NCBI RefSeq assembly: GCF_036971445.1
Contig: NC_091474.1
Coordinates: 144,956,001-145,020,000, forward strand
Direction of reading: 5' to 3'
DNA: 64,000 bases
Origin: Narcine bancroftii
Taxonomy: Eukaryota
Shown here: positions 10,186 to 64,000 of the stretch, piece by piece
Layout: the number at the start of each line of letters is the position of its first letter
Position numbering within the stretch: the first letter of the stretch is position 1
The notes under the pieces: generated by a model
Databases searched by the model: none
What the model was told of the DNA's origin: nothing
Seen by the model: only the letters and a program-made list of their open reading frames with translations
Position numbers and translations under genes: made by a program

Positions 10186-10190
10186 AAAAA
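10186..10190 (-). terminator. Pol III oligo-dT terminator (T5), present at all 10 copies
   Basis: AAAAA on the + strand directly after the 7SL 3' end. Confidence 0.9.
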
Positions 10191-10486
10191 GAGACCTGGT
10201 CTCACTGTATTGATCAGGCTGCGCTGCGAGGTCTATTCACGGGCGCGATCCGACTACTGATGGGCACGGGGGCTTTGACCTGCTCCGTTTCCGACCTGGG
10301 CCGATTCACCCCTCTTCACACAACCTGGTGACGCCCGATTCCTCCGGAGACACCATATCGATGCCCAACTTAGTGAGGACACCCGCTCAACACAGGCCGC
10401 AGCAGCCCAGAACTCCTGATCTCAAGCGATCCGACAGCCTCAGCCTCCGAGTAGCCGGATTACAGGCGCGCGCCACCGCGCCCGGC
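10186..10486 (-). ncRNA. RN7SL: 7SL / SRP RNA gene, copy 1 (includes T5 terminator)
   Basis: Reverse complement starts GCCGGGCGCGGTGGCGCGCGCCTGTAATCC (Alu domain), contains the S domain with helix 8 CCAGGTCGGAAACGGAGCAGG, and ends GAGACCAGGTCTCTTTTT. Confidence 0.97.
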
Positions 10487-10527
10487 GGGAACCAGCCGCG
10501 CTGTACGGGCACTTCAACCTGACCTCA
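10487..10527 (-). promoter_or_regulatory. Conserved upstream Pol III promoter region of 7SL (present at all nine complete copies; copy 1 shown)
   Basis: Minus strand reads TGAGGTCAGGTTGAAGTG(C/T)CCGTACAGCG(C/A)GGCTGGTTCC(C/T)-G(+1). It has a CRE-like TGAGGTCA at -41..-34 and a pyrimidine at -1. Confidence 0.6.
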
Positions 10528-11215
10528 CACACACTCACACTCACTGTACAGTGTCTCATGACCTGCTGCCGCAAATAATGCTCACTTGCTGGTTATCTTC
10601 CTGAGTTCTGTAAAGACCGGTTAATGCGAATTCGACAGTTTAAAAGGAGGAAAGCTGAACACACACACACTTGTAGGTTATCTACCAAAGTTCTGCACTT
10701 CAAACTCATTGGACCGCAGTTAATACAAATTGAATAATTTAAAAAGAGGGAAACTGTAAACAGGCAATAAAAGGCTGATTAATCTCATCAGCGGTGTCCA
10801 AGTAATTCTCCATCATAGAACATTTGCAAAGCAATTCCGACAAACAGTGAATGTGGTGCATGTACAGTTTTAGAAGTTTTAACATAGGATGTCTCAAAGA
10901 GATTAGTGAGCCCTTAATGTGAAAAATTAAAGCACGAGATCAGAGTACTCAAATGGATTCAATACTGGTTGGCCGACAGAAAACAAACATTAGGAATACA
11001 CAAGTATTTTTCACCTCATTCTGTTATCTCCAACAGTTGCAGGGGAAAGTACTGGGACACGGAAAAATGAATTAGGGAGTCACAAAGAGAGTGGTTCCTG
11101 CAGAACTCAGAAAGATGGTTCTGGGGAGATTTGATTAGTGAGAAGTTTAATGTTGGAGCTGGCAAAATCAGTGAGGATGTTGTGCTGATGCCGAAAGGGG
11201 AGGGCAGTTCATAGT

Positions 11216-16434: not shown

Positions 16435-16484
16435 ATCACTAAGTGATTAAAGGGGCCAGTGGTCAAGTATGCACTAATAGGTGG

Positions 16485-21371: not shown

Positions 21372-21672
21372 AAAAAGAGACCTGGTCTCACTGTATTGAT
21401 CAGGCTGCGCTGCGAGGTCTATTCACGGGCGCGATCCGACTACTGATGGGCACGGGGGCTTTGACCTGCTCCGTTTCCGACCTGGGCCGATTCACCCCTC
21501 TTCACACAACCTGGTGACGCCCGATTCCTCCGGAGACACCATATCGATGCCCAACTTAGTGAGGACACCCGCTCAACACAGGCCGCAGCAGCCCAGAACT
21601 CCTGATCTCAAGCGATCCGACAGCCTCAGCCTCCGAGTAGCCGGATTACAGGCGCGCGCCACCGCGCCCGGC
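21372..21672 (-). ncRNA. RN7SL: 7SL / SRP RNA gene, copy 2
   Basis: Same full-length sequence and T5 terminator as copy 1. Confidence 0.97.
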
Positions 21673-23495: not shown

Positions 23496-23714
23496 AGTGG
23501 CCAGACCTTTATGACCTGGGTCCCAGGGGAGGATCCAGGTGAAAGCATCAGGGGGCGGGCCAGCTCGAGCCAATTAGCACACACAATTATAGAGTCTCAT
23601 AACAGATTACTGTGCAAAGGTATGGCATATGTGATTGGAGTACTCACATGGGTTCAATACTGGTTGGCAGATAGCTAAATATTAGGAATAGACACATCTT
23701 TTTCACCTTAATTT

Positions 23715-39030: not shown

Positions 39031-39331
39031 AAAAAGAGACCTGGTCTCACTGTATTGATCAGGCTGCGCTGCGAGGTCTATTCACGGGCGCGATCCGACT
39101 ACTGATGGGCACGGGGGCTTTGACCTGCTCCGTTTCCGACCTGGGCCGATTCACCCCTCTTCACACAACCTGGTGACGCCCGATTCCTCCGGAGACACCA
39201 TATCGATGCCCAACTTAGTGAGGACACCCGCTCAACACAGGCCGCAGCAGCCCAGAACTCCTGATCTCAAGCGATCCGACAGCCTCAGCCTCCGAGTAGC
39301 CGGATTACAGGCGCGCGCCACCGCGCCCGGC
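39031..39331 (-). ncRNA. RN7SL: 7SL / SRP RNA gene, copy 3
   Basis: Same full-length sequence; this copy has the most diverged downstream flank. Confidence 0.97.
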
Positions 39332-42304: not shown

Positions 42305-42478
42305 ATCACCATTCTCACTCTTCTGAAACATCACACTCTTCCCATTCACCATCCTCACTCTTCTGAAACATCACACTCTCCCCATTCACCATCCTCACAT
42401 TTCAGAAACATCACGCTCTCCCCATTCACCATCCTCACACTTCTGAAACATCACACTCTCCCCATTCACCATCCTCTA
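42305..42478. repeat. ~40-bp minisatellite, about 4 copies
   Basis: Unit catcctcactcttctgaaacatcacactctcccattcac; only one unit occurs at the paralogous sites ~18640 and ~57325. Confidence 0.85.
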
Positions 42479-43698
42479 TTCCCTGAACAATACAATTCCA
42501 TTCAACTAATCATAACTCCAGTTGCTATTGTCCCTTAGAGGGGAAAAAAAAACTCTAACTGCCAATCACAGGCTTCCCATTCCGTTGTGCAAAACACCTA
42601 ACCCCAGGATACTCTTCTTTATCTTGCTCAATATTGCCCTTCTCAACTAGATGACAATCACACTCTCTCCCTTCCAGCCACAAAGAAATTTGTCAGGAAA
42701 TGTCTCCCACTTCCTGGTTTTGCAACATCTCCAATTGCAAGTTAATTGAACCATCTCAAGGTAGTGATGGATCCTGCAGAGGAAATAATCCAGAATACTG
42801 GCATTATTCAAAATCTCTCAAATATCACAAAAACATTTCAGAAATCCCATTTGCTTCTGTTCCTATGGCGAGTAACTTACTCTCTTATATGAAAAATGTA
42901 CCAGGCTTATTTGGTCGGTGAATTTTGTTTGAGTTCAGGTTAGCTTGTGATTGATCAGTTGTATTGTTCATAACTTTATTCATATATTTTATGTTTCCAA
43001 TCCTCTCAATCTTTAAATGTGGATGCTTTAAAGATATTATTAATAATACATTATCCTGAATATAATTTACCTGCAAATTAATTGTAGCACCCTGCTTTAA
43101 ATTACTGAGCATCATCTTTTCTTTCAATGAACCACTGTTGAGCAGATCCTTCCATATCTGTGCTCACAGTTATCTGTATGGTTAGTGCTCTCTCCGTTTA
43201 GAACTTGTACAGCAGTGAATTTATCCATCTTTTCCAGTGCATTAAAACAACTGAGCAGCAGAGAGCAGTAACATCAGAGAAATGCAAAACCTGCTAATGC
43301 TGGAATCTTGAGCTTAAAATGGAGGAACTCAGAAAGGGAGAAAACAGGAAAAGAATTAGATAAATTATGGTGGAATCTGATGGGGGTCGCAGTTTCCGAA
43401 AAATCAGTTAATGCCAGTAGTTTTAAGGCTGCCCTGGAGGAATCTCATGAGTGGTGTAAAAGAATGTCAAACAAGAATGTCACACTTTAAGGAAAGAAGC
43501 TCCTGCTCCTGCTAGAGAAGATTTACTAGCCTTGCAGATAAAGAGCCACTATTAGGTAATATATGAGCAAGGTTGCATAAATCCAGGGTCTCATGTTAGG
43601 TCTGAAAACCACAAGGACATGGCAATTAGACAAATATAGTATAACCAGAATTGAGCAAGATTAACCAATCTAAAATTGTTGAGATTGTATGTCTAAAC

Positions 43699-44066
43699 CA
43701 GTGGTTCTCAACCTTTTCTTTTCCATTCACACACTTTAAGTATTAAGTATGCCATCAGTACTCTGTGATTGGTAAGGGATCGCTTAAATTCTATGTGAGT
43801 TGGAAGAAAAAGTTTGAAAACCACTGTTTTAATCATACCTGATTGATTCATTATGTGCAGTTTCATAATTCCTAAGGAAATGGGTCAATAACAATTTTTC
43901 TCAAGCAGACATTTTGGTAAAAATTGGGTCTACAATAATGATTCTCAATCTTCCCTTCCCACTCACACATCACCTTAAACAGTCCCTTACTAATCACAGA
44001 CCACCAATGGCATAGGGATTACATAAAGTGGTATATGAGTGGAAAGAAAATAGTTAAGAACCAATG
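43699..44066. mobile_element. hAT (Charlie-like) MITE
   Basis: Ends cagtggttctcaac / gttaagaaccaatg; imperfect 8-bp TSD gtctaaac / gtgtaaag; empty site gtctaaag in the paralog at ~60540. Confidence 0.82.
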
Positions 44067-44228
44067 GTGTAAAGACAACACAAGGATTGATGGTTATAAA
44101 AAAAAACAGGATCAAACCAGCTGCAAGAAATAAGTAAAACTGCACGTGGCAGTTTGCATAATACAATAAGGTTGTTTGTACTCTCATTTGTTCTGCTGTT
44201 TGTTTTCCAATTTCAAAGCGGGTCAACT

Positions 44229-44960
44229 TTAACAGTTGTTCCTCCAGATTACGTTTGTATGAGGCCGAGTCCATTTTTTTCTGTGTGAGAATGGTTTGGA
44301 TATTGAAATGGTTGGCTCCAGAAAACTCCAGTTGAGACCCAATAAGTATTCGGCGAAGTGTTCACCTAATCTGCGTTTTGTCTCCCTAATGTAGGGAGAC
44401 CACACAGTGTACACCAGATACAGAGCATTAGATTGAACAATGCGCAGGTAAAGCTCTTCCTCACTTGAACGGTCTCTATGTTACCTTGGATGGAGGCTAA
44501 GAGAGAGAGGTAGGGACAAGCTTTGGCCTTCTTGGGATTAGAGCAGAAAGTTGTTGACAGGGTGGAATGGTGAGTGGGGAAGGAAGAGTCGACAAGAGAT
44601 TCTTGGAATCATGTGAAAAGCGGATACGGTTGGAGAGGAGGAAATGCAGCTGTTTGTGGGATTGCACTCGAGTTAGCGGAAGTGTCAGAGGACAATGTGT
44701 CGCAGGCGACGGCTGGTGGGGTGGCTGGAAAGTGAGGACCAGAGGATCTCTGTCCTTGTTCTGCCTTGGGGGAAGTGGGGGGAAGTCAGAAGTGCGAGCA
44801 GTAAAGGGAATTCAGTTTCGGGTTTTGAATCGACGCCAGGTGATTAAGGAAAGAGGATATTTCGGATGTCCTGGAGTGACGGCCTCATCCAGTGACGGAG
44901 GCAGAGGAATTGGGAGGAAGAGAAGGGAAGAGGTAAGATTCAGGTTGCTTGCGAGTCTGT
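44229..44960 (-). mobile_element. Penelope-like GIY-YIG remnant (duplicated at ~60807-61545)
   Basis: YIRETKRRLGEHFAE and RNLEEQLL motifs; homologous to 19930-20720. Confidence 0.75.
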
Positions 44961-45629
44961 GGAAACGAAGGAGAGGTGAAACCTGACGGCCAGAGGCAGT
45001 AGGTGGGCAAATGCCAGATAAAGGGAGGGTTAGTGTGAAATCACCAACAGTTTCTTCCCTGCAGCCATTCAGCGGTGGAATGACCCCAGAACAGTGATCT
45101 CAGGCTGGCCGTGCTTGGTGCTAATTGGTCTTCCTGTTTATCACTGTCCTCCATTGTTAATTATACTCGAAACGTGGTTGTATGTCAAGTTAGAGATAAC
45201 CTGTTAGTCTGTGACAAATGGACATGGACTTCTAAATCAGCCCCTGTGAGAAGAGTTGGCGCTCCCTCTGTCTGAAGCCGAGTGCAGCAGTGAAACAACT
45301 GAACGGCTGAGAATAGTAAAAATGCCTTTTATAAACAGTTCCGCTTACAAAACTATAACTGCATCGCTTTGTGTAATTGTTGAAAATCACACATTCGTAT
45401 TGCAACCTATTCCAAGTGTGAAATGTGGAAAGTACGAATCTTCTTCCCTACTTGGCAAATCTTAGTATTAACTTGCAAGAGGACCAGTAAGTTTCGTTGA
45501 TTGTAACGGTACCTGTCAAAATGATAGCGAAATATCTCTAGAGACGCTGATGTTGATGGGAGTGAAGAAAATGTACTTGTGGGCCGATGGAAGTAAATGT
45601 GAAGATGGAAGTGGAGTGAGATTGTGTGT

Positions 45630-45930
45630 AAAAAGAGACCTGGTCTCACTGTATTGATCAGGCTGCGCTGCGAGGTCTATTCACGGGCGCGATCCGACTA
45701 CTGATGGGCACGGGGGCTTTGACCTGCTCCGTTTCCGACCTGGGCCGATTCACCCCTCTTCACACAACCTGGTGACGCCCGATTCCTCCGGAGACACCAT
45801 ATCGATGCCCAACTTAGTGAGGACACCCGCTCAACACAGGCCGCAGCAGCCCAGAACTCCTGATCTCAAGCGATCCGACAGCCTCAGCCTCCGAGTAGCC
45901 GGATTACAGGCGCGCGCCACCGCGCCCGGC
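45630..45930 (-). ncRNA. RN7SL: 7SL / SRP RNA gene, copy 4 (array 1)
   Basis: Same full-length sequence and terminator. Confidence 0.97.
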
Positions 45931-45965
45931 AGGAACCAGCCTCGCTGTACGGGCACTTCAACCTG

Positions 45966-45969
<4 letters not shown>

Positions 45970-46013
<44 letters not shown>
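45970..46013. repeat. (CA)22 microsatellite adjoining the 7SL promoter; length varies between copies
   Basis: Counted lengths: copy 2 = 12, copy 4 = 22, copy 5 = 15, copy 6 = 21, copy 7 = 16, copy 9 = 12. Interrupted in copies 1, 3 and 8. Confidence 0.95.
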
Positions 46014-46016
<3 letters not shown>

Positions 46017-46214
46017 TACAGCGTCTCATCACCTCCCTCTGCTGCCACAAATAATGCTCACTTGCTGGTTATCTTCCTGAGTTCTGTAAAGGCCGGTTAA
46101 TGCGAATTCGACAGTTAAAAGGAGGAAACCTGAAAACAAGGAAGGAAAGACTGATTACAGGACATCAGCAGTATCCAAAATGTGTTTATCCATTAGAAAA
46201 CTTATAACAGCAGA

Positions 46215-46475
46215 ATTCATCTCCCTTATCCAGCCTGTGATATCGATCTTATCCAGCCTGCTTGTCACTTTCTCAAAGAATTCCAATAGGATTGTCAGCC
46301 AAGGGTTTTTTTCCTTCAGGAAACCATCTGACTTTGGCCTATCCCGTCATGTCTATCCAAGTACTCCAACATCTTCTTAACCACTGACGTCAGGTTTCCC
46401 GGCCGATAATTTCCCTTTAGCGGCCTCCCTCCCTTCTGAATAGAAGAGTGACATTTTCCAGTCCTCCCGGACCAT
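46215..46475 (-). mobile_element. CR1 RT fragment embedded in each 1.6-kb spacer
   Basis: Similar to the CR1 segments at 11760-11850 and 12715-12815 (LEFFEKVT and LTSVV regions). Confidence 0.65.
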
Positions 46476-47235
46476 GAATCAATCTATGTATGTGACCATT
46501 TCAATATATCATGACATGGCAATAAAATGAATCATTGAACCTATATGAGTCTGTAAAAACTAAGGTAGAGGTGAAACATGACTGACAGTGGCAGTAGTTT
46601 GGCAGACACCCGACAAGGGGCTAGTGAGTGTGAAACAACCAACAGGCTAAAAAATCGTTTCTTCCCTGCAGCCATTCGGCGGTGGAATGAACCCCAGAAC
46701 AGTGATCTCAGGCTGCCCGTGCTTGGTGCTAATTGGTCTTCCTGTTCATCATTCCGCTGTATTGTAAATTGCACTCGACACTTGGCTGTATGTGACACTA
46801 GAGATAACGTGTCAGTCTGTTCACAGAAGAACCTTTCCCACAGTCCTAGTTATTTTGTGACAAATCAACTTGTAACTCTGGCCCTGTGAGAAGAGTTGTC
46901 GCTCCCTCTGTCTGGAGCCGGATGTAGCAGTGTTTTCTATCCGTGTTGTCCAGTACAGTAAACGCCCGTTTTAAACAGATCCACTTGCAAAACTATAAAT
47001 ATGCAAAGTTTGTATAAATGTCAATCCAACAGAACTATCACGAGCTATTGTTCCCTACAATGCAAATCTTAATATTAACTTGTAAAGAACCAGTAAGTTT
47101 CGTTGATTGTAACGGTACCTGTCAAAATGATAGCGAAATATCTCTAGAGACGCTGATGTTGATGGGAGTGAAGAAAATGTACTTGTGGGCCGATGGAAGT
47201 AAATGTGAAGATGGAAGTGGAGTGAGATTGTGTGT

Positions 47236-47536
47236 AAAAAGAGACCTGGTCTCACTGTATTGATCAGGCTGCGCTGCGAGGTCTATTCACGGGCGCGATC
47301 CGACTACTGATGGGCACGGGGGCTTTGACCTGCTCCGTTTCCGACCTGGGCCGATTCACCCCTCTTCACACAACCTGGTGACGCCCGATTCCTCCGGAGA
47401 CACCATATCGATGCCCAACTTAGTGAGGACACCCGCTCAACACAGGCCGCAGCAGCCCAGAACTCCTGATCTCAAGCGATCCGACAGCCTCAGCCTCCGA
47501 GTAGCCGGATTACAGGCGCGCGCCACCGCGCCCGGC
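47236..47536 (-). ncRNA. RN7SL: 7SL / SRP RNA gene, copy 5 (array 1)
   Basis: Same full-length sequence and terminator. Confidence 0.97.
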
Positions 47537-47571
47537 AGGAACCAGCCTCGCTGTACGGGCACTTCAACCTG

Positions 47572-47608
<37 letters not shown>

Positions 47609-48828
47609 TACAGCGTCTCATCACCTCCCTCTGTTGCCACAAATAATGCTCACTTGCTGGTTATCTTCCTGAGTTCTGTAAAGGCCGGTTAATGCGAATT
47701 CGACAGTTAAAAGGAGGAAACCTGAAAACAAGGAAGGAAAGACTGATTACAGGACATCATCAGTATCCAAAATGTGTTTCACCATTAGAAAACTTATAAC
47801 AGCAGAGTTCATCTCCCTTATCCAGCCTGTGATATCGATCTTATCCAGCCTGCTTGTCACTTTCTCAAAGAATTCCAATAGGATTGTCAGCCAAGGGTTT
47901 TTTTCCTTCAGGAAACCATCTGACTTTGGCCTATCCCGTCATGTCTATCCAAGTACTCCAACATCTTCTTAACCACTGACGTCAGGTTTCCCGGCCGATA
48001 ATTTCCCTTTAGCGGCCTCCCTCCCTTCTGAATAGAAGAGTGACATTTTCCAGTCCTCCCAGACCATGAATCAATCTATGTATGTGACCATTTCAATATA
48101 TCATGACATGGCAATAAAATGAATCATTGAACCTATATGAGTCTGTAAAAACTAAGGTAGAGGTGAAACATGACTGACAGTGGCAGTAGTTTGGCAGACA
48201 CCCGACAAGGGGCTAGTGAGTGTGAAACAACCAACAGGCTAAAAAATCGTTTCTTCCCTGCAGCCATTCGGCGGTGGAATGAACCCCAGAACAGTGATCT
48301 CAGGCTGCCCGTGCTTGGTGCTAATTGGTCTTCCTGTTCATCATTCCGCTGTATTGTAAATTGCACTCGACACGTGGCTGTATGTGACACTAGAGATAAC
48401 GTGTCAGTCTGTTCACAGAAGAACCTTTCCCACAGTCCTAGTTATTTTGTGACAAATCAACTTGTAACTCTGGCCCTGTGAGAAGAGTTGCCGCTCCCTC
48501 TGTCTGGAGCCGGATGTAGCGGTGTTTTCTATCCGTGTTGTCCAATACAGTAAAACGCCCGTTTTAAACAGATCCACTTGCAAAATTATAAATATGCAAA
48601 GTTTGTATAAATGTCAATCCAACAGAACTTTCACGAGCTATTGTTCCCTACAATGCAAATCTTAATATTAACTTGTAAAGAACCAGTAAGTTTCGTTGAT
48701 TGTAACGGTACCTGTCAAAATGATAGCGAAATATCTCGAGAGACGCTGATGTTGATGGGAGTGAAGAAAATGTACTTGTGGGCCGATGGAAGTAAATGTG
48801 AAGATGGAAGTGGAGTGAGATTGTGTGT

Positions 48829-49129
48829 AAAAAGAGACCTGGTCTCACTGTATTGATCAGGCTGCGCTGCGAGGTCTATTCACGGGCGCGATCCGACTAC
48901 TGATGGGCACGGGGGCTTTGACCTGCTCCGTTTCCGACCTGGGCCGATTCACCCCTCTTCACACAACCTGGTGACGCCCGATTCCTCCGGAGACACCATA
49001 TCGATGCCCAACTTAGTGAGGACACCCGCTCAACACAGGCCGCAGCAGCCCAGAACTCCTGATCTCAAGCGATCCGACAGCCTCAGCCTCCGAGTAGCCG
49101 GATTACAGGCGCGCGCCACCGCGCCCGGC
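48829..49129 (-). ncRNA. RN7SL: 7SL / SRP RNA gene, copy 6 (array 1)
   Basis: Same full-length sequence and terminator. Confidence 0.97.
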
Positions 49130-49164
49130 AGGAACCAGCCTCGCTGTACGGGCACTTCAACCTG

Positions 49165-49213
<49 letters not shown>

Positions 49214-50432
49214 TACAGCGTCTCATCACCTCCCTCTGCTGCCACAAATAATGCTCACTTGCTGGTTATCTTCCTGAGTTCTGTAAAGGCCGGTTAATGC
49301 GAATTCGACAGTTAAAAGGAGGAAACCTGAAAACAAGGAAGGAAAGACTGATTACAGGACATCAGCAGTATCCAAAATGTGTTTATCCATTAGAAAACTT
49401 ATAACAGCAGAATTCATCTCCCTTATCCAGCCTGTGATATCGATCTTATCCAGCCTGCTTGTCACTTTCTCAAAGAATTCCAATAGGATTGTCAGCCAAG
49501 GGTTTTTTTCCTTCAGGAAACCATCTGACTTTGGCCTATCCCGTCATGTCTATCCAAGTACTCCAACATCTTCTTAACCACTGACGTCAGGTTTCCCGGC
49601 CGATAATTTCCCTTTAGCGGCCTCCCTCCCTTCTGAATAGAAGAGTGACATTTTCCAGTCCTCCCGGACCATGAATCAATCTATGTATGTGACCATTTCA
49701 ATATATCATGACATGGCAATAAAATGAATCATTGAACCTATATGAGTCTGTAAAAACTAAGGTAGAGGTGAAACATGACTGACAGTGGCAGTAGTTTGGC
49801 AGACACCCGACAAGGGGCTAGTGAGTGTGAAACAACCAACAGGCTAAAAAATCGTTTCTTCCCTGCAGCCATTCGGCGGTGGAATGAACCCCAGAACAGT
49901 GATCTCAGGCTGCCCGTGCTTGGTGCTAATTGGTCTTCCTGTTCATCATTCCGCTGTATTGTAAATTGCACTCGACACGTGGCTGTATGTGACACTAGAG
50001 ATAACGTGTCAGTCTGTTCACAGAAGAACCTTTCCCACAGTCCTAGTTATTTTGTGACAAATCAACTTGTAACTCTGGCCCTGTGAGAAGAGTTGTCGCT
50101 CCCTCTGTCTGGAGCCGGATGTAGCAGTGTTTTCTATCCGTGTTGTCCAGTACAGTAAACGCCCGTTTTAAACAGATCCACTTGCAAAACTATAAATATG
50201 CAAAGTTTGTATAAATGTCAATCCAACAGAACTATCACGAGCTATTGTTCCCTACAATGCAAATCTTAATATTAACTTGTAAAGAACCAGTAAGTTTCGT
50301 TGATTGTAACGGTACCTGTCAAAATGATAGCGAAATATCTCTAGAGACGCTGATGTTGATGGGAGTGAAGAAAATGTACTTGTGGGCCGATGGAAGTAAA
50401 TGTGAAGATGGAAGTGGAGTGAGATTGTGTGT

Positions 50433-50733
50433 AAAAAGAGACCTGGTCTCACTGTATTGATCAGGCTGCGCTGCGAGGTCTATTCACGGGCGCGATCCGA
50501 CTACTGATGGGCACGGGGGCTTTGACCTGCTCCGTTTCCGACCTGGGCCGATTCACCCCTCTTCACACAACCTGGTGACGCCCGATTCCTCCGGAGACAC
50601 CATATCGATGCCCAACTTAGTGAGGACACCCGCTCAACACAGGCCGCAGCAGCCCAGAACTCCTGATCTCAAGCGATCCGACAGCCTCAGCCTCCGAGTA
50701 GCCGGATTACAGGCGCGCGCCACCGCGCCCGGC
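50433..50733 (-). ncRNA. RN7SL: 7SL / SRP RNA gene, copy 7 (array 1)
   Basis: Same full-length sequence and terminator. Confidence 0.97.
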
Positions 50734-50768
50734 AGGAACCAGCCTCGCTGTACGGGCACTTCAACCTG

Positions 50769-50807
<39 letters not shown>

Positions 50808-52027
50808 TACAGCGTCTCATCACCTCCCTCTGTTGCCACAAATAATGCTCACTTGCTGGTTATCTTCCTGAGTTCTGTAAAGGCCGGTTAATGCGAATTC
50901 GACAGTTAAAAGGAGGAAACCTGAAAACAAGGAAGGAAAGACTGATTACAGGACATCATCAGTATCCAAAATGTGTTTCACCATTAGAAAACTTATAACA
51001 GCAGAGTTCATCTCCCTTATCCAGCCTGTGATATCGATCTTATCCAGCCTGCTTGTCACTTTCTCAAAGAATTCCAATAGGATTGTCAGCCAAGGGTTTT
51101 TTTCCTTCAGGAAACCATCTGACTTTGGCCTATCCCGTCATGTCTATCCAAGTACTCCAACATCTTCTTAACCACTGACGTCAGGTTTCCCGGCCGATAA
51201 TTTCCCTTTAGCGGCCTCCCTCCCTTCTGAATAGAAGAGTGACATTTTCCAGTCCTCCCAGACCATGAATCAATCTATGTATGTGACCATTTCAATATAT
51301 CATGACATGGCAATAAAATGAATCATTGAACCTATATGAGTCTGTAAAAACTAAGGTAGAGGTGAAACATGACTGACAGTGGCAGTAGTTTGGCAGACAC
51401 CCGACAAGGGGCTAGTGAGTGTGAAACAACCAACAGGCTAAAAAATCGTTTCTTCCCTGCAGCCATTCGGCGGTGGAATGAACCCCAGAACAGTGATCTC
51501 AGGCTGCCCGTGCTTGGTGCTAATTGGTCTTCCTGTTCATCATTCCGCTGTATTGTAAATTGCACTCGACACGTGGCTGTATGTGACACTAGAGATAACG
51601 TGTCAGTCTGTTCACAGAAGAACCTTTCCCACAGTCCTAGTTATTTTGTGACAAATCAACTTGTAACTCTGGCCCTGTGAGAAGAGTTGCCGCTCCCTCT
51701 GTCTGGAGCCGGATGTAGCGGTGTTTTCTATCCGTGTTGTCCAATACAGTAAAACGCCCGTTTTAAACAGATCCACTTGCAAAACTATAAATATGCAAAG
51801 TTTGTATAAATGTCAATCCAACAGAACTTTCACGAGCTATTGTTCCCTACAATGCAAATCTTAATATTAACTTGTAAAGAACCAGTAAGTTTCGTTGATT
51901 GTAACGGTACCTGTCAAAATGATAGCGAAATATCTCGAGAGACGCTGATGTTGATGGGAGTGAAGAAAATGTACTTGTGGGCCGATGGAAGTAAATGTGA
52001 AGATGGAAGTGGAGTGAGATTGTGTGT

Positions 52028-52328
52028 AAAAAGAGACCTGGTCTCACTGTATTGATCAGGCTGCGCTGCGAGGTCTATTCACGGGCGCGATCCGACTACT
52101 GATGGGCACGGGGGCTTTGACCTGCTCCGTTTCCGACCTGGGCCGATTCACCCCTCTTCACACAACCTGGTGACGCCCGATTCCTCCGGAGACACCATAT
52201 CGATGCCCAACTTAGTGAGGACACCCGCTCAACACAGGCCGCAGCAGCCCAGAACTCCTGATCTCAAGCGATCCGACAGCCTCAGCCTCCGAGTAGCCGG
52301 ATTACAGGCGCGCGCCACCGCGCCCGGC
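52028..52328 (-). ncRNA. RN7SL: 7SL / SRP RNA gene, copy 8 (array 1)
   Basis: Same full-length sequence; its upstream flank differs from the array units. Confidence 0.97.
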
Positions 52329-53949: not shown

Positions 53950-54009
<60 letters not shown>

Positions 54010-54250
54010 AGATTCAAACTGCCAGGCAGCATGTCTTTCCCTCACTCACTTGCAAAACCCCTGTTCTTCTCCAGCAAACAATAGCAGTTCATCTTTTGGT
54101 CAATCTGTTGTTTTAGGTAAACAAGAACCAATCAATGACCTTTCTGCAAAGATGTATTAGGAGATGGCCTTTCTCATGCTGTGCCTTTAAAAGACAATAG
54201 TCCATTCATTTACTTCAATTAATAGCCACATGTGAAATCTCCATTGCATT
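53309..54250 (-). mobile_element. LTR-like repeat related to 3858-4830
   Basis: Shared terminus and internal (CT)n at 53953-54003. Confidence 0.6.
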
Positions 54251-54256
54251 CTCTAT

Positions 54257-55211
54257 TTCTTTGGCTTGGCTTCGCGGACGAAGATTTATGGAGGGGGTAA
54301 AAGTCCACGTCAGCTGCAGGCTCGTTTGTGGCTGACAAGTCCGATGCGAGACAGGCAGACACGGTTGCAGCGGCTGCAGGGGAAAATTGGTTGGTTGGGG
54401 TTGGGTGTTAGGTTTTTCCTCCTTTGCCTTTTGTCAGTGAGGTGGGCTCTGCGGTCTTCTTCAAAGGAGGTTGCTGCCCGCCAAACTGTGAGGTGCCAAG
54501 ATGCACGGTTTGAGGCGTTATCAGTCCACTGGCGGTGGTCAATGTGGCAGGCACCAAGAGATTTCTTTAGGCAGTCCTTGTACCTTTTCTTTGGTGCACC
54601 TCTGTCACGGTGGCCAGTGGAGAGCTCGCCATATAACACGATCTTGGGAAGGCGATGGTCCTCCATTCTGGAGACGTGACCCATCCAGCGCAGCTGGATC
54701 TTCAGCAGCGTGGACTCGATGCTGTCGACCTCTGCCATCTCGAGTACTTCGACGTTAGGGACGAAAGCGCTCCAATGGATGTTGAGGATGGAGTGGAGAC
54801 AATGCTGGTGGAAGCGTTCTAGGAGCCGTAGGTGATGCCGGTAGAGGACCCATGATTCGGAGCCGAACAGGAGTGTGGGTATGACAACGGATCTGTATAC
54901 GCTTATCTTTGTGAGGTTTTTCAGTTGGTTGTTTTTCCAGACTCTTTTGTGTAGTCTTCCAAAGGCGCTATTTGCCTTGGCGAGTCTGTTGTCTATCTCA
55001 TTGTCGATCCTTGCATCTGATGAAATGGTGCAGCCGAGATAGGTAAACTGGTTGACCGTTTTGAGTTTTGTGTGCCCGATGGAGATGTCGGGGGGCTGGT
55101 AGTCATGGTGGGGAGCTGGCTGATGGAGGACCTCAGTTTTCTTCAGGCTGACTTCCAGGCCAAACATTTTGGCAGTTTCCGCAAAGCAGGACTTCAAGCG
55201 CTGCAGAGCTG
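54257..55211 (-). mobile_element. RTE (BovB-like) LINE, 5'-truncated, with an intact 295-aa C-terminal frame
   Basis: ORF 54310-55197, ending in a CxxC...H zinc finger and the standard terminus. Confidence 0.94.
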
Positions 55212-58200
55212 GAAAATCAATGAATATAAATTCTTCATTATTTCAACTAAGATATGTTTTAAATTATGTGTAATTAACCTACTCAAATTTTACCAATTTA
55301 TCACCCAAAAGCATTCCCAAATATTCAATCGCAATAATTATGTCCCATATCAGTATTCATGGCCACTATTTTAATCTGCAGAAAAGTGGGGGTATGGGAG
55401 TGATGGGGATTGGGATGAAAGATGTTGTTGAGAGGGTGGACATATTCTCTCAAGTGTAAGACACAATTAGTGTAGGAGAAATATTTTGGTCTCATTCAAG
55501 AAGAAAGTGTGTATGGCAGTTTCTTGGATGTCAATAACAAATCAAGTCAGTTAAGAACAAGGATTTGGATGTTATCAGAATGATAGAGGGCATCATTGCT
55601 GTCCCAAATACAAATGGATGGAACTGGACAATGCGAGTCAGGATGGACACTGGAAATGAAGACATTGGTTCAGTGTGGTAGAAATAGGCAGAAACAATGT
55701 GTCCACCAAGACAGACCTGCTTATGAACCATGGGTAAAAAATAAAAAAATAATAGTGTGTGGTTGGGGCACTGTTAAGGGGGATGTTGCAGAGAAGAGAT
55801 CTCCTGATGTCATATGACCTGTAATGATCTGGAAGAATGATGTTCAATGGTGAAGTCATAAGATGAGTCCTGAGCTTTAATCTCTGCAAATATAAGGTCA
55901 GTGTGCTGGACTACAACAGCACCTACATAGATTGCAATGTTTGATGTGGACTTTAGGATTAATATGAAGTCAGCATAATCTGTGGGTTCACGATGGGGTG
56001 GTAGTTTGGGGGTGGGGGGGCTAGTGGGGGTGTAGATGATTGAGCTGGAAATTGGACAAATGGTAACCAAGGATGGGTGAGGATGCCTTGTTGAAGATAT
56101 ATCCATAGAGGCAGAAGCAGTGGAAGATTTCAACATTGAGCTAGGCCTGGATTATACTAGAAGTGAACTATCTGCTGAGCACTGACTGCCATGCATCAGA
56201 GAAGCGGAAAATTCGGAGGTGAGGGTGATCTGGTGAAGACATGGCAGGGTTTGGAGTTTCAACTTTATTCCAAGGACAATTGAAGAATGAGACAATATTT
56301 CATTGATGTATTTAATATTATTGGAGGTAAAGGTACAGTAAATCCAAGCAGGCTTTTTTCCACTGAGAGAAGAATGAGAGGGTGAAAGTTAAACTGTTCA
56401 GAGGGAATATTAAGAGGGCCTTTTTCATGTGGGGTTCCTCAAATCTTTCAAGAATTTCCATGTTAAAACCTCTGAATGGCCCAACATTTCATAGATTCCT
56501 CTTCAATAATTTACTCAGCACCTCATCTTACATGATGCCCATAATCTTGTAACTATTTTCCCTCCTTCAATATTCTCCTACTTGTAAACATATCAGGTCA
56601 ACATTTATCATGATCTTATGTTTCATTGAGATGTCCTGTTGTTCTTCTAAACTCTGACAGATACATATCTCATTTCTTTATCCTCATGTGATAGAGCAAG
56701 CCTCCCATCCCACGAATTAACCTCCTGAATTTATTTTGGTGTTCTTCCCTTACGGGAATACTCCTACTTAAATAATGAGACCAAAACAGTGCACAGTTCT
56801 CCAGGAAATAGGGGGTGGGTGAGCATGATCACAAGTCAATAGTAGCAATACTTATCTATTTCTAAACTTAAACTGTTGCAATGAATATCAATAAACAACT
56901 TACTTTCTTAAACATTAGCCATATCTGCTCATTAAATAAAACACATTTGAATGACTTCATCCTGTTTTATCCGCTCTCATTCACGAAAGCATTGTTAAAT
57001 TCAATAACACATAAAGCTAAGTTATCTATTTAGGCAGTACACAAACTTAATCATGTTAATTGATCTTCCAACATCTTTACTCTACAGACAACTACACTCT
57101 TTGACCTCTTATTTCTCACCTGACCACGATCCCTTTTCAGAACACCATTCCAAATTATATTCCTCACTCAAACATCTTTCTCTCAAAATCACTATTATTT
57201 CAATCACCTGCATTACCAATCTGGTGAACATTTGTTCTCCCTTCCTGCAGTCCTGAACCAACTCCCTGCCCACCACACTTTAGATCACCATGCACTTTGA
57301 GATCAACGTCCTCCCCACAACCAATATCCTCACTCTATTGAAACTTCATGCCCTCCCCATTCACCAACTCCTACTCCCAGATCAATGTAATTCCTTTGAA
57401 CTAACCATAACTCCAGTTGCTATTGTTCCTTAGAGAAAAAAAATCTCCAATTGCCAATCACAAACTTCCCATTGCCTCATCCAAAACACCTAACCCAAGG
57501 ATACTCTTCTTTTTCTTGCTCAATATTGCTCTTCACAACTAGCTGACAATCACACTCTCTCCCTTCCAGCAATGAAGAAATTTGTCAGGATATCCCTCCC
57601 ATGTTCTGGTTTTGCAGCCTCTCCAATTGCAAGTTAATTGCACCATCTCAAGGTAGTGATGGATCCTGCAAAGGAAATAATCCAGAATACTGGCATCATT
57701 CAAAATCCCTCAAATATCACAAAATCATTTCAGAAATCCCCTTTGCTTCTGTTCCTATGGCGAGTAACTTACTCTCTTATATGACAAATGTAGCAGGCTT
57801 ATTTGGTCGGTTAATTTTGTTTGAGTTCAAGTTAGCTTGTGATTGATCAGTTGTATTGTTCATAATTTTATTCATATATTTTATGTTTCCAATCCTCTCA
57901 ATCATTAAACGTGGATGCTTTAAAGATATTATTAATAATACATTATCCTGAATATAATTTACCTGCAAATTAATTGTAGCACCCTCCTTTAAATTACTGA
58001 GCATCGTCTTCTCTTTCAATGAACCGCTGTTGAGCAGATCCTTGCATATCTGTGCTCACAGTATGGTTAGTGCTCTCTTCGTTTAGAACATGTACAGCAG
58101 TGAATTTAACTATCTTTTTCAGTGCACTAAAATAACTGAGCAGCAGAGAGCAGTAACATCAGAGAAATGCAAAAACTGCCGATGCTGGAATCTTGAGCAT

Positions 58201-58334
58201 AAAATGAACTGCTGGAGGAACTCAGTAAGGGAGAAAACAGGAAAATAATTTGATAAATTATGGTGGAATCTGATGGGGGCAGCGGTTTCTGAAAAATCAA
58301 AGTTAATGCCAGTAGCTTTAAGCTGCCAAGAAGG

Positions 58335-60261: not shown

Positions 60262-62216
60262 AGGCTGCCCAGGAGGAATATCATGAATGGTGTAAAAGAA
60301 TGTCAAACAAGAACGTCAAATGTTAAAGGAAAGAAGATCCTGCTGTGTGTGTAGGCTAGTGAAGATTTACTAGCCTTGCAGATAAAGAGCCACTATTAGG
60401 TAATGTATGCGCAAGGTTACATAAATCCAAGGTTTATGTTATGTCTGAAAACAAATCCACAAGGACATGGCAATTAGACAGATAGAGTATAATCGGAGTT
60501 GAGCAAGGTTAGCCTATCTACAATTGATGAGATTGTATGTCTAAAGACACCACACGGATAGATGGTAATTAAAACAGGAACAAACCAGCTGCAAGAAAAC
60601 GTAAAGCTGCACGTGGCATTAATCGAGAAGAGGACTATATAAGATGAACTAAAACACTGTATATGTAGAGTGAGGCTCAATGCAGGGAACGAGTGACCAA
60701 TCTACTCATCTTTTATACCCATTACTCCCGCATGCATAAAACAATAAAGTTGATTGTACTCTCATTCGTTCTGCTGTTTGCTTTCTAATTTCAGCGCAGG
60801 TCAACTTTAACAGTTGTTCCTCCAGTTTACGTTTGTATGAGGCCGAGTCCTTTTTTTTCTGTGTGTGAATGGTTCGGGTCTTGAAATGGTTGGCTCCAGA
60901 AAACTCCAGTTGAGACCCAATAAGTATTCGGCGAAGTGTTCACGTAATCTGGGTTTTGTCTCCCTAATGTAGGGAGACCACACAGTGTACACAAGATACA
61001 GAGCATTAGGTTGAACAATGCGCAGGTAAAGGTCTTCCTCACTTGAACGGTCTCCATGTTACCTTGGATGGAGGCTAAGAGAGAGAGGTAGGGACAAGCT
61101 TTGGCCTTCTTGGGATTAGAGCAGAAAGTTGTTGACAGGGTGGAATGGTGAGTGGGGAAGGAAGAGTCGACAAGAGATTCTTGGAGAGATGTAATCATGT
61201 GAAAAGCGGATACGGTTGGAGAGGAGGAAATGCAGCTGTTTGTGGGATTGCACTCGAGTTAGCGGAAGTGTCAAAGGACAATGTGTCGCAGGCGACGGCT
61301 GGTGGGGTGGCTGGAAAGTGAGGACCAGAGGGACTCTGTCCTTGTTCTGCCTTGGGGGAAGTGGGGGGAAGTCAGAAGTGCGAGCAGTAAAGGGAATTCA
61401 GTTTCGGGTTTTGAATCGACGCCAGGTGATTAAGGAAAGAGGATATTTCGGATGTCCTGGAGTGACGGCCTCATCCAGTGACGGAGGCAGAGGAATTGGG
61501 AGGAAGAGAAGGGAAGAGGTAAGATTCAGGTTGCTTGCGAGTCTGTGGAAACGAAGGGAGAGGTGAAACCTGACGGCCAGAGGCAGTAGGTGGGCAAATG
61601 CCAGATAAAGGGAGGGTTAGTGTGAAATCACCAACAGTTTCTTCCCTGCAGCCATTCAGGGGTGGAATGACCCCAGAACAGTGATCTCAGGCTGGCCGTG
61701 CTTGGTGCTAATTGGTCTTCCTGTTCATCATTGTCCTCCATTGTAAATTATACTCGAAACGTGGTTGTATGTCAAGTTAGAGATAACCTGTTAGTCTGTG
61801 ACAAATGGACATGGACTTCTAAATCAGCCCCTGTGAGAAGAGTTGGCGCTCCCTCTGTCTGAAGCCGAGTGCAGCAGTGAAACAACTGAACGGCTGAGAA
61901 TAGTAAAAATGCCTTTTATAAACAGTTCCGCTTACAAAACTATAACTGCATCGCTTTGTGTAATTGTTGAAAATCACACAGTCGTATTGCAACCTATTCC
62001 AAGTGTGAAATGTGGAAAGTACGAATCTTCTTCCCTACTTGGCAAATCTTAGTATTAACTTGCAAGAGGACCAGTAAGTTTCGTTGATTGTAACGGTACC
62101 TGTCAAAATGATAGCGAAATATCTCTCGAGAAGCTGATGTTGATGGGAGTGAAGAAAATGTACTTGTGGGCCGATGGAAGTAAATGTGAAGATGGAAGTG
62201 GAGTGAGATTGTGTGT

Positions 62217-62517
62217 AAAAAGAGACCTGGTCTCACTGTATTGATCAGGCTGCGCTGCGAGGTCTATTCACGGGCGCGATCCGACTACTGATGGGCACGG
62301 GGGCTTTGACCTGCTCCGTTTCCGACCTGGGCCGATTCACCCCTCTTCACACAACCTGGTGACGCCCGATTCCTCCGGAGACACCATATCGATGCCCAAC
62401 TTAGTGAGGACACCCGCTCAACACAGGCCGCAGCAGCCCAGAACTCCTGATCTCAAGCGATCCGACAGCCTCAGCCTCCGAGTAGCCGGATTACAGGCGC
62501 GCGCCACCGCGCCCGGC
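62217..62517 (-). ncRNA. RN7SL: 7SL / SRP RNA gene, copy 9 (array 2)
   Basis: Same full-length sequence and terminator. Confidence 0.97.
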
Positions 62518-63803
62518 AGGAACCAGCCTCGCTGTACGGGCACTTCAACCTGACCTCACACACACACACACACACACACACTGTACAGCGTCTCATCACC
62601 TCCCTCTGTTGCCACAAATAATGCTCACTTGCTGGTTATCTGCCTGAGTTCTGTAAAGGCCGGTTAATGCGAATTCGACAGTTAAAAGGAGGAAACCTGA
62701 AAACAAGGAAGGAAAGACTGATTACAGGACATCATCAGTATCCAAAATGTGTTTCACCATTAGAAAACTTATAACAGCAGAGTTCATCTCCCTTATCCAG
62801 CCTGTGATATCGATCTTATCCAGCCTGCTTGTCACTTTCTCAAAGAATTCCAATAGGATTGTCAGCCAAGGGTTTTTTTCCTTCAGGAAACCATCTGACT
62901 TTGGCCTATCCCGTCATGTCTATCCAAGTACTCCAACATCTTCTTAACCACTGACGTCAGGTTTCCCGGCCGATAATTTCCCTTTAGCGGCCTCCCTCCC
63001 TTCTGAATAGAAGAGTGACATTTTCCAGTCCTCCCGGACCATGAATCAATCTATGTATGTGACCATTTCAATATATCATGACATGGCAATAAAATGAATC
63101 ATTGAACCTATATGAGTCTGTAAAAACTAAGGTAGAGGTGAAACATGACTGACAGTGGCAGTAGTTTGGCAGACACCCGACAAGGGGCTAGTGAGTGTGA
63201 AACAACCAACAGGCTAAAAAATCGTTTCTTCCCTGCAGCCATTCGGCGGTGGAATGAACCCCAGAACAGTGATCTCAGGCTGCCCGTGCTTGGTGCTAAT
63301 TGGTCTTCCTGTTCATCATTCCGCTGTATTGTAAATTGCACTCGACACGTGGCTGTATGTGACACTAGAGATAACGTGTCAGTCTGTTCACAGAAGAACC
63401 TTTCCCACAGTCCTAGTTATTTTGTGACAAATCAACTTGTAACTCTGGCCCTGTGAGAAGAGTTGCCGCTCCCTCTGTCTGGAGCCGGATGTAGCGGTGT
63501 TTTCTATCCGTGTTGTCCAATACAGTAAAACGCCCGTTTTAAACAGATCCACTTGCAAAACTATAAATATGCAAAGTTTGTATAAATGTCAATCCAACAG
63601 AACTATCACGAGCTATTGTTCCCTACAATGCAAATCTTAATATTAACTTGTAAAGAACCAGTAAGTTTCGTTGATTGTAACGGTACCTGTCAAAATGATA
63701 GCGAAATATCTCTAGAGACGCTGATGTTGATGGGAGTGAAGAAAATGTACTTGTGGGCCGATGGAAGTAAATGTGAAGATGGAAGTGGAGTGAGATTGTG
63801 TGT

Positions 63804-64000
63804 AAAAAGAGACCTGGTCTCACTGTATTGATCAGGCTGCGCTGCGAGGTCTATTCACGGGCGCGATCCGACTACTGATGGGCACGGGGGCTTTGACCTG
63901 CTCCGTTTCCGACCTGGGCCGATTCACCCCTCTTCACACAACCTGGTGACGCCCGATTCCTCCGGAGACACCATATCGATGCCCAACTTAGTGAGGACAC
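63804..64000 (-). ncRNA. RN7SL: 7SL / SRP RNA gene, copy 10 (3' part only; 5' end lies beyond the window)
   Basis: T5 terminator, 3' Alu strand and S domain match the other copies up to the window edge. Confidence 0.93.

What the first reader, a model, noticed from the sequence alone, without database searches (positions are those of the whole stretch)
10186..64000. Amplified cluster of at least 10 apparently identical, intact 7SL (SRP RNA) genes
Seen: ten head-to-tail copies with bodies identical by eye, each with a T5 terminator (nine also show the upstream motif), while the flanks of the dispersed copies diverge visibly. Known: mammals use only a few bona fide 7SL genes, and tandem amplification is the typical pattern for 5S, U1 and U2. 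Inference: this is a dosage-amplified SRP RNA locus under concerted evolution. It may be a stage-specific set, by analogy with oocyte-type 5S genes in amphibians and fish. The array continues past the window.
Basis: partly seen in the sequence, partly recalled or inferred. Interest (0 to 1): 0.8.

Follow-up and report, generated by a model that had tools for sequence, protein, structure and literature searches.

The report
Clustered identical 7SL RNA genes
This is a real cluster of at least ten identical, intact-looking genes for the RNA of the signal recognition particle, probably from a ray; it looks like the egg-specific 7SL gene clusters already reported in zebrafish, though its expression has not been tested.

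Summary
Observation confirmed. Ten RF00017 genes lie on the minus strand; 9 of 9 full copies are identical over 298 nt and the tenth is cut by the window end. All ten have a T5 terminator; nine have a promoter with a TATA-like box at -31/-24 and a CRE-like element. Only copies 4-8 and 9-10 form a tight 1.6-kb tandem; the rest lie 6.6-17.7 kb apart among retroelements. Identity runs 66 nt past the gene in all ten copies, while flanks beyond differ 14-22% between four lineages, with nested breakpoints: gene conversion, not assembly duplication, except possibly one 3.2-kb dimer. The RNA keeps its core motifs but departs from the Rfam consensus at helices 6 and 7. A retroelement points to a ray host. 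The arrangement is not new: zebrafish has 67 clustered maternal-type SRP RNA genes plus one somatic gene (bioRxiv 869651). I found no report for cartilaginous fish. Best reading: a maternal/germline-type 7SL array under concerted evolution (about 0.55); expression untested. New member of a known kind; interest 0.42.

The parts
10189..10486 (-). 7SL (SRP RNA) gene, copy 1; T5 terminator at 10186-10190
   Evidence: RF00017 249.8 bits; identical to copies 2-9; T run
21375..21672 (-). 7SL gene, copy 2; carries a 590-nt downstream tract of the young short-unit type (20785-21374, 97.8% identical) inside an old-type flank
39034..39331 (-). 7SL gene, copy 3; most diverged downstream flank, identity to the others ends 66 nt past the gene
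45633..45930 (-). 7SL gene, copy 4; first copy of the tight 1.6-kb tandem (short-type upstream, old-type downstream)
47239..47536 (-). 7SL gene, copy 5 (1.6-kb unit)
48832..49129 (-). 7SL gene, copy 6 (1.6-kb unit)
50436..50733 (-). 7SL gene, copy 7 (1.6-kb unit)
52031..52328 (-). 7SL gene, copy 8 (short-type downstream, old-type upstream)
62220..62517 (-). 7SL gene, copy 9 (short-type upstream, old-type downstream shared with copy 4 at about 99%)
63807..64000 (-). 7SL gene, copy 10, 3' 194 nt only; cut by the window end
10123..10188 (-). 66-nt trailer past the gene, identical in all ten copies, with a second T4 run at +62 to +65 (copy 1 shown; same place in every copy)
10487..10527 (-). Proximal upstream promoter (copy 1 shown; present in copies 1-9): TATA-like TTGAAGTG at -31/-24, CRE-like TGAGGTCA at -41/-34; variable only at -1, -12, -23
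   Evidence: compared with the mammalian 7SL elements quoted in PMC7279448
45970..46014 (-). (TG)n microsatellite directly upstream of the promoter (copy 4 shown); the tract is 16-46 nt long in copies 1-9
45931..52030 (.). Four short spacers of about 1.3 kb in A-B-A-B order (12-13 substitutions between A and B, 1 within each type); 45931-49129 and 49130-52328 differ by 2 substitutions and 4 gap columns
62518..63806 (.). Fifth short spacer, a patchwork of A-type and B-type sites
   Evidence: variable-site table
46379..46480 (-). LINE remnant inside the short spacer (same place in all five), similar to the window's own reading frame at 12662-13174; carries a TGACGTCA at 46385
   Evidence: tblastn 47% over 34 aa, E 0.002 in 5 of 5 short spacers; the label CR1 is recalled
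41591..45632 (.). Remnant of an older long repeat unit, colinear with 56397-62219 (80-97%) and in part with 18323-21374 (67-76%)
54248..55242 (-). RTE-like LINE fragment between copies 8 and 9; related 91-96% copies at 32819-33502, 35574-36002 and 39914-40864; used for the host inference
   Evidence: the label RTE is recalled

Best explanation
The locus is a cluster of RNA polymerase III genes for a variant 7SL RNA, kept identical by concerted evolution, and most likely the maternal (oocyte/germline) set of a cartilaginous fish. Step 1 (shown): each copy has the parts of a vertebrate 7SL transcription unit: internal A- and B-box-like words, a TATA-like box at -31/-24, a CRE-like element and a T5 stop. 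Step 2 (shown from sequence): an old long unit was duplicated several times and its spacers decayed and filled with retroelements; a young 1.6-kb unit then spread by unequal exchange; gene conversion or crossover starting in the gene keeps overwriting all copies with one version, dragging 66-590 nt of downstream flank along. Step 3 (inferred): the RNA still assembles into SRP, since the Alu UGUAA turn, the 5e loop, the GNAR loop of helix 6 and helix 8 are kept, while the helix 6 apex and helix 7, which contact SRP19 and SRP68, differ from the metazoan consensus. Step 4 (inferred by analogy with zebrafish): many copies supply a large store of SRP RNA during oogenesis, and a separate solitary gene elsewhere supplies somatic cells. 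My odds: real, convertingly homogenised, transcription-competent genes about 0.85; maternal/germline-biased expression about 0.55.
For: Ten RF00017 hits, 9 of 9 full copies identical. Among four downstream flank lineages (copies 1, 3, 4, 5) 0 of 66 columns vary right after the gene, against 28 of 74, 61 of 126 and 78 of 199 further out; pairwise divergence over nt 111-650 is 14-22% between lineages. Perfect-identity runs end at nested points, 66, 87, 93, 150, 209, 234 nt and beyond. Copy 2, 24 kb from the tight array, has 590 nt of short-unit flank at 97.8%. Sites -12 and -23 show all four combinations among nine copies. 64 of 68 upper-case (highly conserved) Rfam consensus positions are matched and 11 pairs differ from the consensus on both sides yet still pair (counted by eye); 95 of 120 model pairs are standard. 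Promoter words sit where mammalian 7SL genes have a TATA-like box (PMC7279448, passages). Zebrafish: 67 SRP RNA genes in three clusters are maternal, a single gene is somatic, about 7% apart in sequence; clustering is the rule for its maternal-type non-coding RNA genes (10.1101/869651, main text; PMC5340908 passages; 10.1101/858944 passages).
Against: No expression, ChIP or read data were available. No second, solitary 7SL variant lies in the window, and no eukaryote genome collection was on hand, so the somatic partner is unseen. The zebrafish result is a preprint that calls itself preliminary, and zebrafish also has an apparently intact but hardly expressed copy. In stingrays the two 5S rDNA classes have not been tied to oocyte versus somatic expression (PMC3123226 passages). 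The RNA folds no better than shuffles (z -0.82, 25 of 100 shuffles as good; -1.16 on a rerun), helix 6 has three mismatches where the consensus pairs and helix 7 keeps 1 of 2 pairs, which a decaying array would also show. The CRE-like word is 7 of 8 and lies 10 nt closer than in mammals. The host assignment rests on one retroelement family; a second search did not name a cartilaginous fish.
Confidence: 0.55

Rival explanations
1. Housekeeping array: this cluster is simply the species' ordinary 7SL gene family, expressed in all tissues, amplified by drift or for general dosage, and the departures from the Rfam consensus are the normal state of this lineage.
For: All core motifs and a 7SL-type promoter are present. 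Complete identity fits strong selection on a gene needed everywhere. Nothing in the window marks it as germline-specific. The helix 6 loop still fits GNAR (PMC4615810, PMC2905702 passages).
Against: Humans use three loci (PMC7073466 passage) and in zebrafish the somatic gene is solitary while the clustered genes are maternal. The changes at helices 6 and 7 hit positions that Rfam marks as highly conserved.
Confidence: 0.25
2. Silent or selfish array: the copies are rarely or never transcribed and persist because conversion and unequal exchange homogenise them, like the 'unexpressed type' of zebrafish or a satellite built on a 7SL gene.
For: Conversion homogenises 66 nt of presumably non-functional trailer as fully as the gene, so identity alone does not prove selection. 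Weak folding score and mismatches in helices 6 and 7. Gene-poor, retroelement-rich surroundings.
Against: CpG is kept in the gene (observed/expected 0.94 against 0.44 for the window and 0.56 for the short spacer, although one old flank also reaches 0.95). Promoter words are invariant across five upstream lineages, while 58 of 146 columns vary beyond the microsatellite in the four aligned. No truncated or deleted copy among ten.
Confidence: 0.12
3. RNA-templated homogenisation: copies are overwritten by cDNA of the 7SL transcript or its read-through form, made by the resident LINE reverse transcriptases, so that the shared tract matches the transcript.
For: The tract common to all copies starts exactly at +1 (first variable site at -1) and ends one base after the second T run at +62 to +65. 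3 of 41 upstream sites vary against 0 of 364 in gene plus trailer (Fisher p about 0.001; copies are not independent). LINE reverse transcriptase remnants surround the array.
Against: Only copy 3 defines the 66-nt end; all other pairs share 87-590 nt, past further T runs, which DNA-level exchange explains better. Upstream against the 66-nt trailer alone gives p 0.054. The variable (TG)n tract could itself stop heteroduplex upstream (inference). No A-tails or processed copies are seen.
Confidence: 0.1
4. Assembly artefact: identical copies come from mis-assembly of one or a few genes.
For: The two halves of 45931-52328 differ by only 2 substitutions and 4 gap columns in 3.2 kb, so two of the ten copies could be a stutter.
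Against: The other eight copies have distinct flanks: 14-22% between lineages, 12-13 substitutions between A and B spacers, different microsatellite lengths and different retroelement inserts.
Confidence: 0.03

Closest known systems
[quoted passage not shown]
   Same: Many complete 7SL genes in clusters in a fish genome; in zebrafish 67 copies mainly in three clusters, expressed in egg and early embryo.
   Different: Zebrafish copies are 91% or more alike; here the copies seen are 100% identical. Host is probably a cartilaginous fish. Expression here is unknown. Whether the two share sequence changes or synteny could not be tested: the zebrafish sequences are in a figure and in a bioRxiv supplement that I could not see.
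Oocyte/maternal-type 5S rRNA and snRNA gene arrays of Xenopus and zebrafish (PMC1635290, PMC5340908, 10.1101/858944)
   Same: Tandem Pol III or small-RNA genes with variant sequence, interrupted by retroelements, beside a low-copy somatic set.
   Different: Those arrays reach hundreds to thousands of copies; zebrafish 5S arrays are hit inside the gene by target-specific Mutsu elements, whereas no 7SL copy here is interrupted.
Mammalian 7SL genes RN7SL1-3
   Same: Same RNA family; internal promoter plus upstream TATA-like box at -31/-24 and a CRE-type element.
   Different: Three loci in human rather than an array; CRE at -51/-44 and perfect, here -41/-34 and 7 of 8; no (TG)n tract is described in the passages read.
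Two-class 5S rDNA of stingrays, skates and sharks (PMC3123226)
   Same: [quoted passage not shown]
   Different: A different RNA; classes there are separate arrays, while here long and short units are interleaved and share one gene sequence.
7SL-derived SINEs (Alu, B1, Urop, hagfish Ebu1-1; PMC13023118)
   Same: Many genomic copies of 7SL sequence.
   Different: Those SINEs lack the central part of 7SL and carry tails; these copies are full-length, share long flanks and end in T5.

Membership tests
Metazoan SRP RNA (Rfam RF00017) | Score above the family gathering threshold over the whole model | tested here: met
   249.8 bits against a cut-off of 70, model 1-299, 9 of 9 full copies
Metazoan SRP RNA (Rfam RF00017) | Alu domain with helices 2-4 and the UGUNR turn | tested here: met
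   13 of 14 model pairs standard in helices 2-4; UGUAA present; motif defined in PMC2905702
Metazoan SRP RNA (Rfam RF00017) | Helix 6 closed by a GNAR tetraloop with A at the third position (SRP19 site) | tested here: met
   Loop GGAA fits GNAR though the Rfam consensus is GGAG; 14 of 18 model pairs standard
Metazoan SRP RNA (Rfam RF00017) | Helix 8 with GNRA loop and SRP54-binding internal loops | tested here: met
   GAAA loop; every upper-case consensus letter at model positions 176-219 matched
Metazoan SRP RNA (Rfam RF00017) | Helix 7 T-loop at the three-way junction (SRP68 site) | tested here: inconclusive
   1 of 2 model pairs kept and loop UGA for consensus UAA; whether the T-loop still forms was not modelled
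Metazoan SRP RNA (Rfam RF00017) | Assembles with SRP9/14, 19, 54, 68/72 and targets nascent chains | not testable with these tools
   needs binding or translocation assays
Bona fide 7SL gene (not SINE or processed pseudogene) | Full length, T-run terminator, no A-tail, upstream TATA-like box at -31/-24 | tested here: met
   298 nt, T5 in 10 of 10, TTGAAGTG at -31/-24 in 9 of 9, 6 of 8 letters shared with the 7SL-3 and 4.5SH boxes quoted in PMC7279448
Bona fide 7SL gene (not SINE or processed pseudogene) | CRE/ATF element near -50 | tested here: inconclusive
   -51/-44 falls in the (TG)n tract; a 7-of-8 match lies at -41/-34 in 9 of 9
Bona fide 7SL gene (not SINE or processed pseudogene) | Pol III occupancy and transcript | not testable with these tools
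Concertedly evolving multigene array | Genes more alike than their spacers, with homogenisation reaching non-transcribed flanks and signs of exchange | tested here: met
   0 of 66 variable trailer columns against 167 of 399 further out; nested tract ends; four-gamete pattern; mosaic spacer
Maternal-type non-coding RNA set (zebrafish dual translation system) | Many clustered copies | tested here: met
   10 copies in 54 kb, array cut by the window end
Maternal-type non-coding RNA set (zebrafish dual translation system) | Sequence differs from a solitary somatic gene in the same genome | not testable with these tools
   no second variant in the window; no eukaryote genome collection; only the departure from the Rfam consensus could be seen
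Maternal-type non-coding RNA set (zebrafish dual translation system) | Expressed in oocyte, egg and early embryo, replaced later | not testable with these tools
   needs RNA-seq
7SL-derived SINE | Central deletion of 7SL and a retroposition tail | tested here: not met
   full-length bodies with T5 and shared flanks; SINE features from PMC13023118

The most novel reading that the evidence does not exclude
Cartilaginous fish have a dedicated maternal-type signal recognition particle: a clustered 7SL variant altered at the SRP19 and SRP68 contact sites, descended from the same ancestral cluster as the zebrafish one. The dual maternal/somatic translation and targeting system would then be as old as jawed vertebrates and lost in mammals, and the locus would also be a clean natural record of transcription-linked gene conversion, with a tract that starts at +1 and runs out past the terminator.
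Probability: 0.25. Interest if true: 0.68.

Novelty: new member of a known kind. Interest (0 to 1): 0.42.

Why it matters
A clustered, maternally expressed 7SL set is on record only from a preliminary zebrafish preprint among the papers I could find. A second case in a cartilaginous fish would show whether egg-specific SRP RNA is ancestral to jawed vertebrates or arose more than once, and it gives diagnostic letters (helix 6 loop, helix 7) that make the test a simple read-mapping exercise on ovary and somatic RNA-seq. Apart from that, identical genes inside flanks 14-22% apart, with nested tract ends, offer an unusually legible example of gene conversion in a Pol III gene family. If the array is just the housekeeping set or silent, it is an ordinary multigene family.

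Tried and rejected
Assembly duplication of the whole set: rejected from flank differences; only the 3.2-kb dimer stays open. SINE or processed pseudogenes: rejected. A 7SL-targeting retrotransposon like Mutsu in 5S arrays: no interrupted or partial gene. Other RNA genes in the unit: none; ARAGORN found 0 tRNA genes and the 14 extra Rfam hits in E-value mode are all far below their gathering scores, 9 of them mir-1268 matches to the 7SL 5' end. Cellular protein genes in the window: of 35 stop-to-stop frames of 120 aa or more, 23 were scanned against Pfam; 7 of 23 matched, all reverse transcriptase, RNase H or integrase domains, and 16 matched nothing; 12 frames were not scanned and spliced exons would be missed. 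A comparator 7SL from contaminated bacterial assemblies: exact scan of genome contigs with a 28-nt word of the gene gave 0 matches; metagenome and viral contigs stayed unchecked. A second host marker: the L1-like frame at 27840-28430 gave best hits of 51% or less, none named as a cartilaginous fish among the 120 of 209 listed. Folding z-score as proof of function: not significant. The perfect TGACGTCA in the short spacer as a promoter element: set aside, as it lies about 440 nt upstream inside a LINE remnant and is absent from the long units. Paper searches that gave nothing on 7SL clusters in cartilaginous fish or Xenopus.
Full report
1. Observation. A scan of the whole window against Rfam at gathering thresholds returned 10 hits, all Metazoa_SRP (RF00017) on the minus strand: nine complete (10189, 21375, 39034, 45633, 47239, 48832, 50436, 52031, 62220; 298 nt, 249.8 bits each) and one cut by the window end (63807-64000). 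The nine full bodies are one sequence and the part of copy 10 matches it. All ten end in T5 and the gene has no internal T4. Spacings are 11.2, 17.7, 6.6, 1.6, 1.6, 1.6, 1.6, 10.2 and 1.6 kb, so only copies 4-8 and 9-10 are a tight tandem. No other 7SL fragment, tRNA gene or credible Rfam family is present.

2. The RNA. Read against the Rfam alignment, 64 of 68 upper-case consensus positions are matched; the four changes are a compensated pair (126/222), the last base of the helix 6 loop (GGAA for GGAG) and the middle base of the helix 7 loop (UGA for UAA) (counted by eye). On the model structure 95 of 120 pairs are standard: 13 of 14 in the Alu helices, 33 of 46 and 22 of 25 in proximal and distal helix 5, 14 of 18 in helix 6, 1 of 2 in helix 7, 12 of 15 in helix 8; the model includes natural non-standard pairs, and I had no reference vertebrate 7SL to set these counts against. 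Eleven pairs differ from the consensus on both sides and still pair (by eye), but the consensus is metazoa-wide, so this shows a kept fold rather than recent selection. The UGUNR turn and GNAR loop that papers name as functional (PMC2905702 and PMC4615810, passages) are present; helix 7 forms the T-loop that SRP68 contacts. Free folding recovers helices 5, 6 and 8 but is no more stable than shuffles (z -0.82; -1.16 whole, -1.69 S domain). So: a plausible working SRP RNA, with its oddities at the helix 6 apex and helix 7.

3. The transcription unit. A-box-like and B-box-like words occur at gene positions 5 and 72 (patterns recalled). In 9 of 9 readable copies -31/-24 reads TTGAAGTG and -41/-34 reads TGAGGTCA. 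Mammalian 7SL genes have a TATA-like box at -31/-24 and a CRE at -51/-44 (PMC7279448, passages); the first matches in place and in 6 of 8 letters, the second is a 7-of-8 match one helical turn closer. A (TG)n tract of 16-46 nt follows upstream. A second T4 lies at +62 to +65 and a third near +112 after the gene in 10 of 10 copies.

4. How the copies stay identical. Downstream flanks fall into four lineages (copy 1; copy 3; copies 4 and 9; copies 2, 5-8, 10) that differ by 14-22% over nt 111-650. Yet the first 66 nt past the gene are identical in all 45 pairs; at 15-20% divergence the chance of that for one pair is 2e-5 to 4e-7. With one copy per lineage (1, 3, 4, 5; the other six left out as near-duplicates), 0 of 66 columns vary, then 28 of 74, 61 of 126 and 78 of 199. 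Perfect runs end at nested points from 66 to 456 nt. Upstream and downstream types are shuffled: copies 4 and 9 join a short-type upstream to an old downstream, copies 2 and 8 the reverse, and copy 2 carries 590 nt of short-type flank at 97.8% though it lies 24 kb away. Promoter sites -12 and -23 show all four combinations. The short spacers run A-B-A-B and the fifth is a patchwork. The long intervals 1-2, 3-4 and 8-9 share colinear remnants at 67-97%, the trace of an older long unit. This is gene conversion plus unequal exchange acting on top of selection; selection alone would not be expected to freeze a trailer beyond the terminator (inference). The shared tract is lopsided: 3 of 41 upstream sites vary, the first at -1, against 0 of 364 in gene plus trailer (p about 0.001; 0.054 against the trailer alone; copies are not independent). 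I keep an RNA-templated route as a minor rival, since only copy 3 sets the 66-nt end.

5. Artefact check. Eight copies have clearly distinct surroundings. The two halves of 45931-52328 differ by 2 substitutions and 4 gap columns in 3.2 kb: a very recent dimer duplication, or a stutter that would remove two copies at most.

6. Host and surroundings. Of 23 frames scanned (of 35 listed), the 7 with Pfam hits are all retroelement domains. The LINE frame at 54313-55242 has its six best hits, at 85-91% identity, in proteins named Narcine bancroftii, an electric ray; 9 of the 120 listed (of 456) carry that name, and the best other hit with over 90% coverage is 73%. A second frame gave no closer than 51% and no cartilaginous-fish name. 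Elements of this LINE group move between species (recalled), so I put a ray or related cartilaginous fish at about 0.75 and do not name a species. The labels RTE, CR1, L1 and LTR element are recalled from motifs.

7. What is known. Human 7SL comes from three loci (PMC7073466, passage). Zebrafish has 67 complete SRP RNA genes on chromosome 11, mainly in three clusters and 91% or more alike, expressed in egg and early embryo and replaced by a single gene on chromosome 3; a third single copy is hardly expressed; maternal and somatic forms differ by about 7% (bioRxiv 10.1101/869651, main text read in three parts; the authors call the results preliminary; its figure alignment and supplement ST3 were not seen and bear directly on whether the two variants share changes). 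The same clustered-maternal, solitary-somatic pattern holds for zebrafish 5S and snRNA genes (PMC5340908 and 10.1101/858944, passages) and Xenopus 5S (PMC1635290, passages). Against a simple carry-over: in stingrays the two 5S classes are not tied to oocyte or somatic use (PMC3123226, passages). 7SL-derived SINEs have a central deletion and tails (PMC13023118, passages), unlike these copies. PMC13588334 and PMC4233971 (passages) added nothing specific. Ten searches showed no report of a 7SL cluster in cartilaginous fish; most hits were seen as listings only (30 of 2052, 25 of 740, 30 of 51), and the library lacks most subscription papers and does not cover genome annotations, where such copies may already be marked.

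8. Verdict. The feature is real and the concerted-evolution reading is well supported by the sequence. It works like a dosage array of Pol III RNA genes; membership in RF00017 is met; membership in the maternal-type class is met only for organisation, with expression and the somatic partner untestable here. Best explanation: maternal/germline-type 7SL array, 0.55; housekeeping array 0.25; silent array 0.12; whole-array artefact 0.03; RNA-templated homogenisation, a separate question of mechanism, 0.10. Because zebrafish already shows the arrangement, this is a new member of a known kind. Interest 0.42; up to about 0.68 if it proves maternal and shares an origin with the zebrafish cluster (probability about 0.25).

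Noticed in passing
window 10123-10486 and the same place in every copy: The tract identical in all ten copies starts exactly at +1 and ends one base after the second T run (+62 to +65 past the gene), as if it matched a read-through transcript; only copy 3 sets the 3' end.
   Followed up: partly
window 45931-52328: Short spacers alternate A-B-A-B, a 3.2-kb higher-order dimer with 2 substitutions and 4 gap columns between halves.
   Followed up: yes
window 46385, 47977, 49582, 51176, 62952: The only five perfect TGACGTCA (CRE) words of the window lie in a LINE remnant of the short spacer, about 440 nt upstream of the gene; possibly chance, possibly a recruited enhancer of the young unit.
   Followed up: partly
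window 10488-10801: Copy 1 has about 85 nt of its upstream region twice, a short-unit-like version next to the old version, joined at a short TG run.
   Followed up: partly
window 10520-10527 and equivalents: The CRE-like promoter word lacks the central CpG of a true CRE and also contains the hexamer AGGTCA, recalled as a nuclear-receptor half-site.
   Followed up: no
window 3086-3285, 8584-8686, 32819-33502, 35574-36002, 39914-40864, 54248-55212: Six 5'-truncated copies of one young LINE family, 87-98% alike and sharing the same end; the copies in intervals 3-4 and 8-9 have different flanks at that end, so they look like separate insertions.
   Followed up: partly
window 4997-5455, 31687-34924, 37909-38545: Broken LTR-retroelement remnants with RNase H and integrase domain hits; described only.
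   Followed up: no
window 42306-42476: A 40-nt tandem repeat of 4.3 copies inside the old long unit between copies 3 and 4.
   Followed up: no
window 38461-39033: The downstream flank of copy 3 keeps CpG (observed/expected 0.95) unlike the other flanks measured (0.42-0.69).
   Followed up: no
window 14000-16450: A stretch of about 51% GC with two overlapping open frames (14907-15395, 15010-15435, minus strand) that match no Pfam family, near a 167-nt direct repeat (14123-14289 and 16269-16436, 88%); possibly another mobile element.
   Followed up: no
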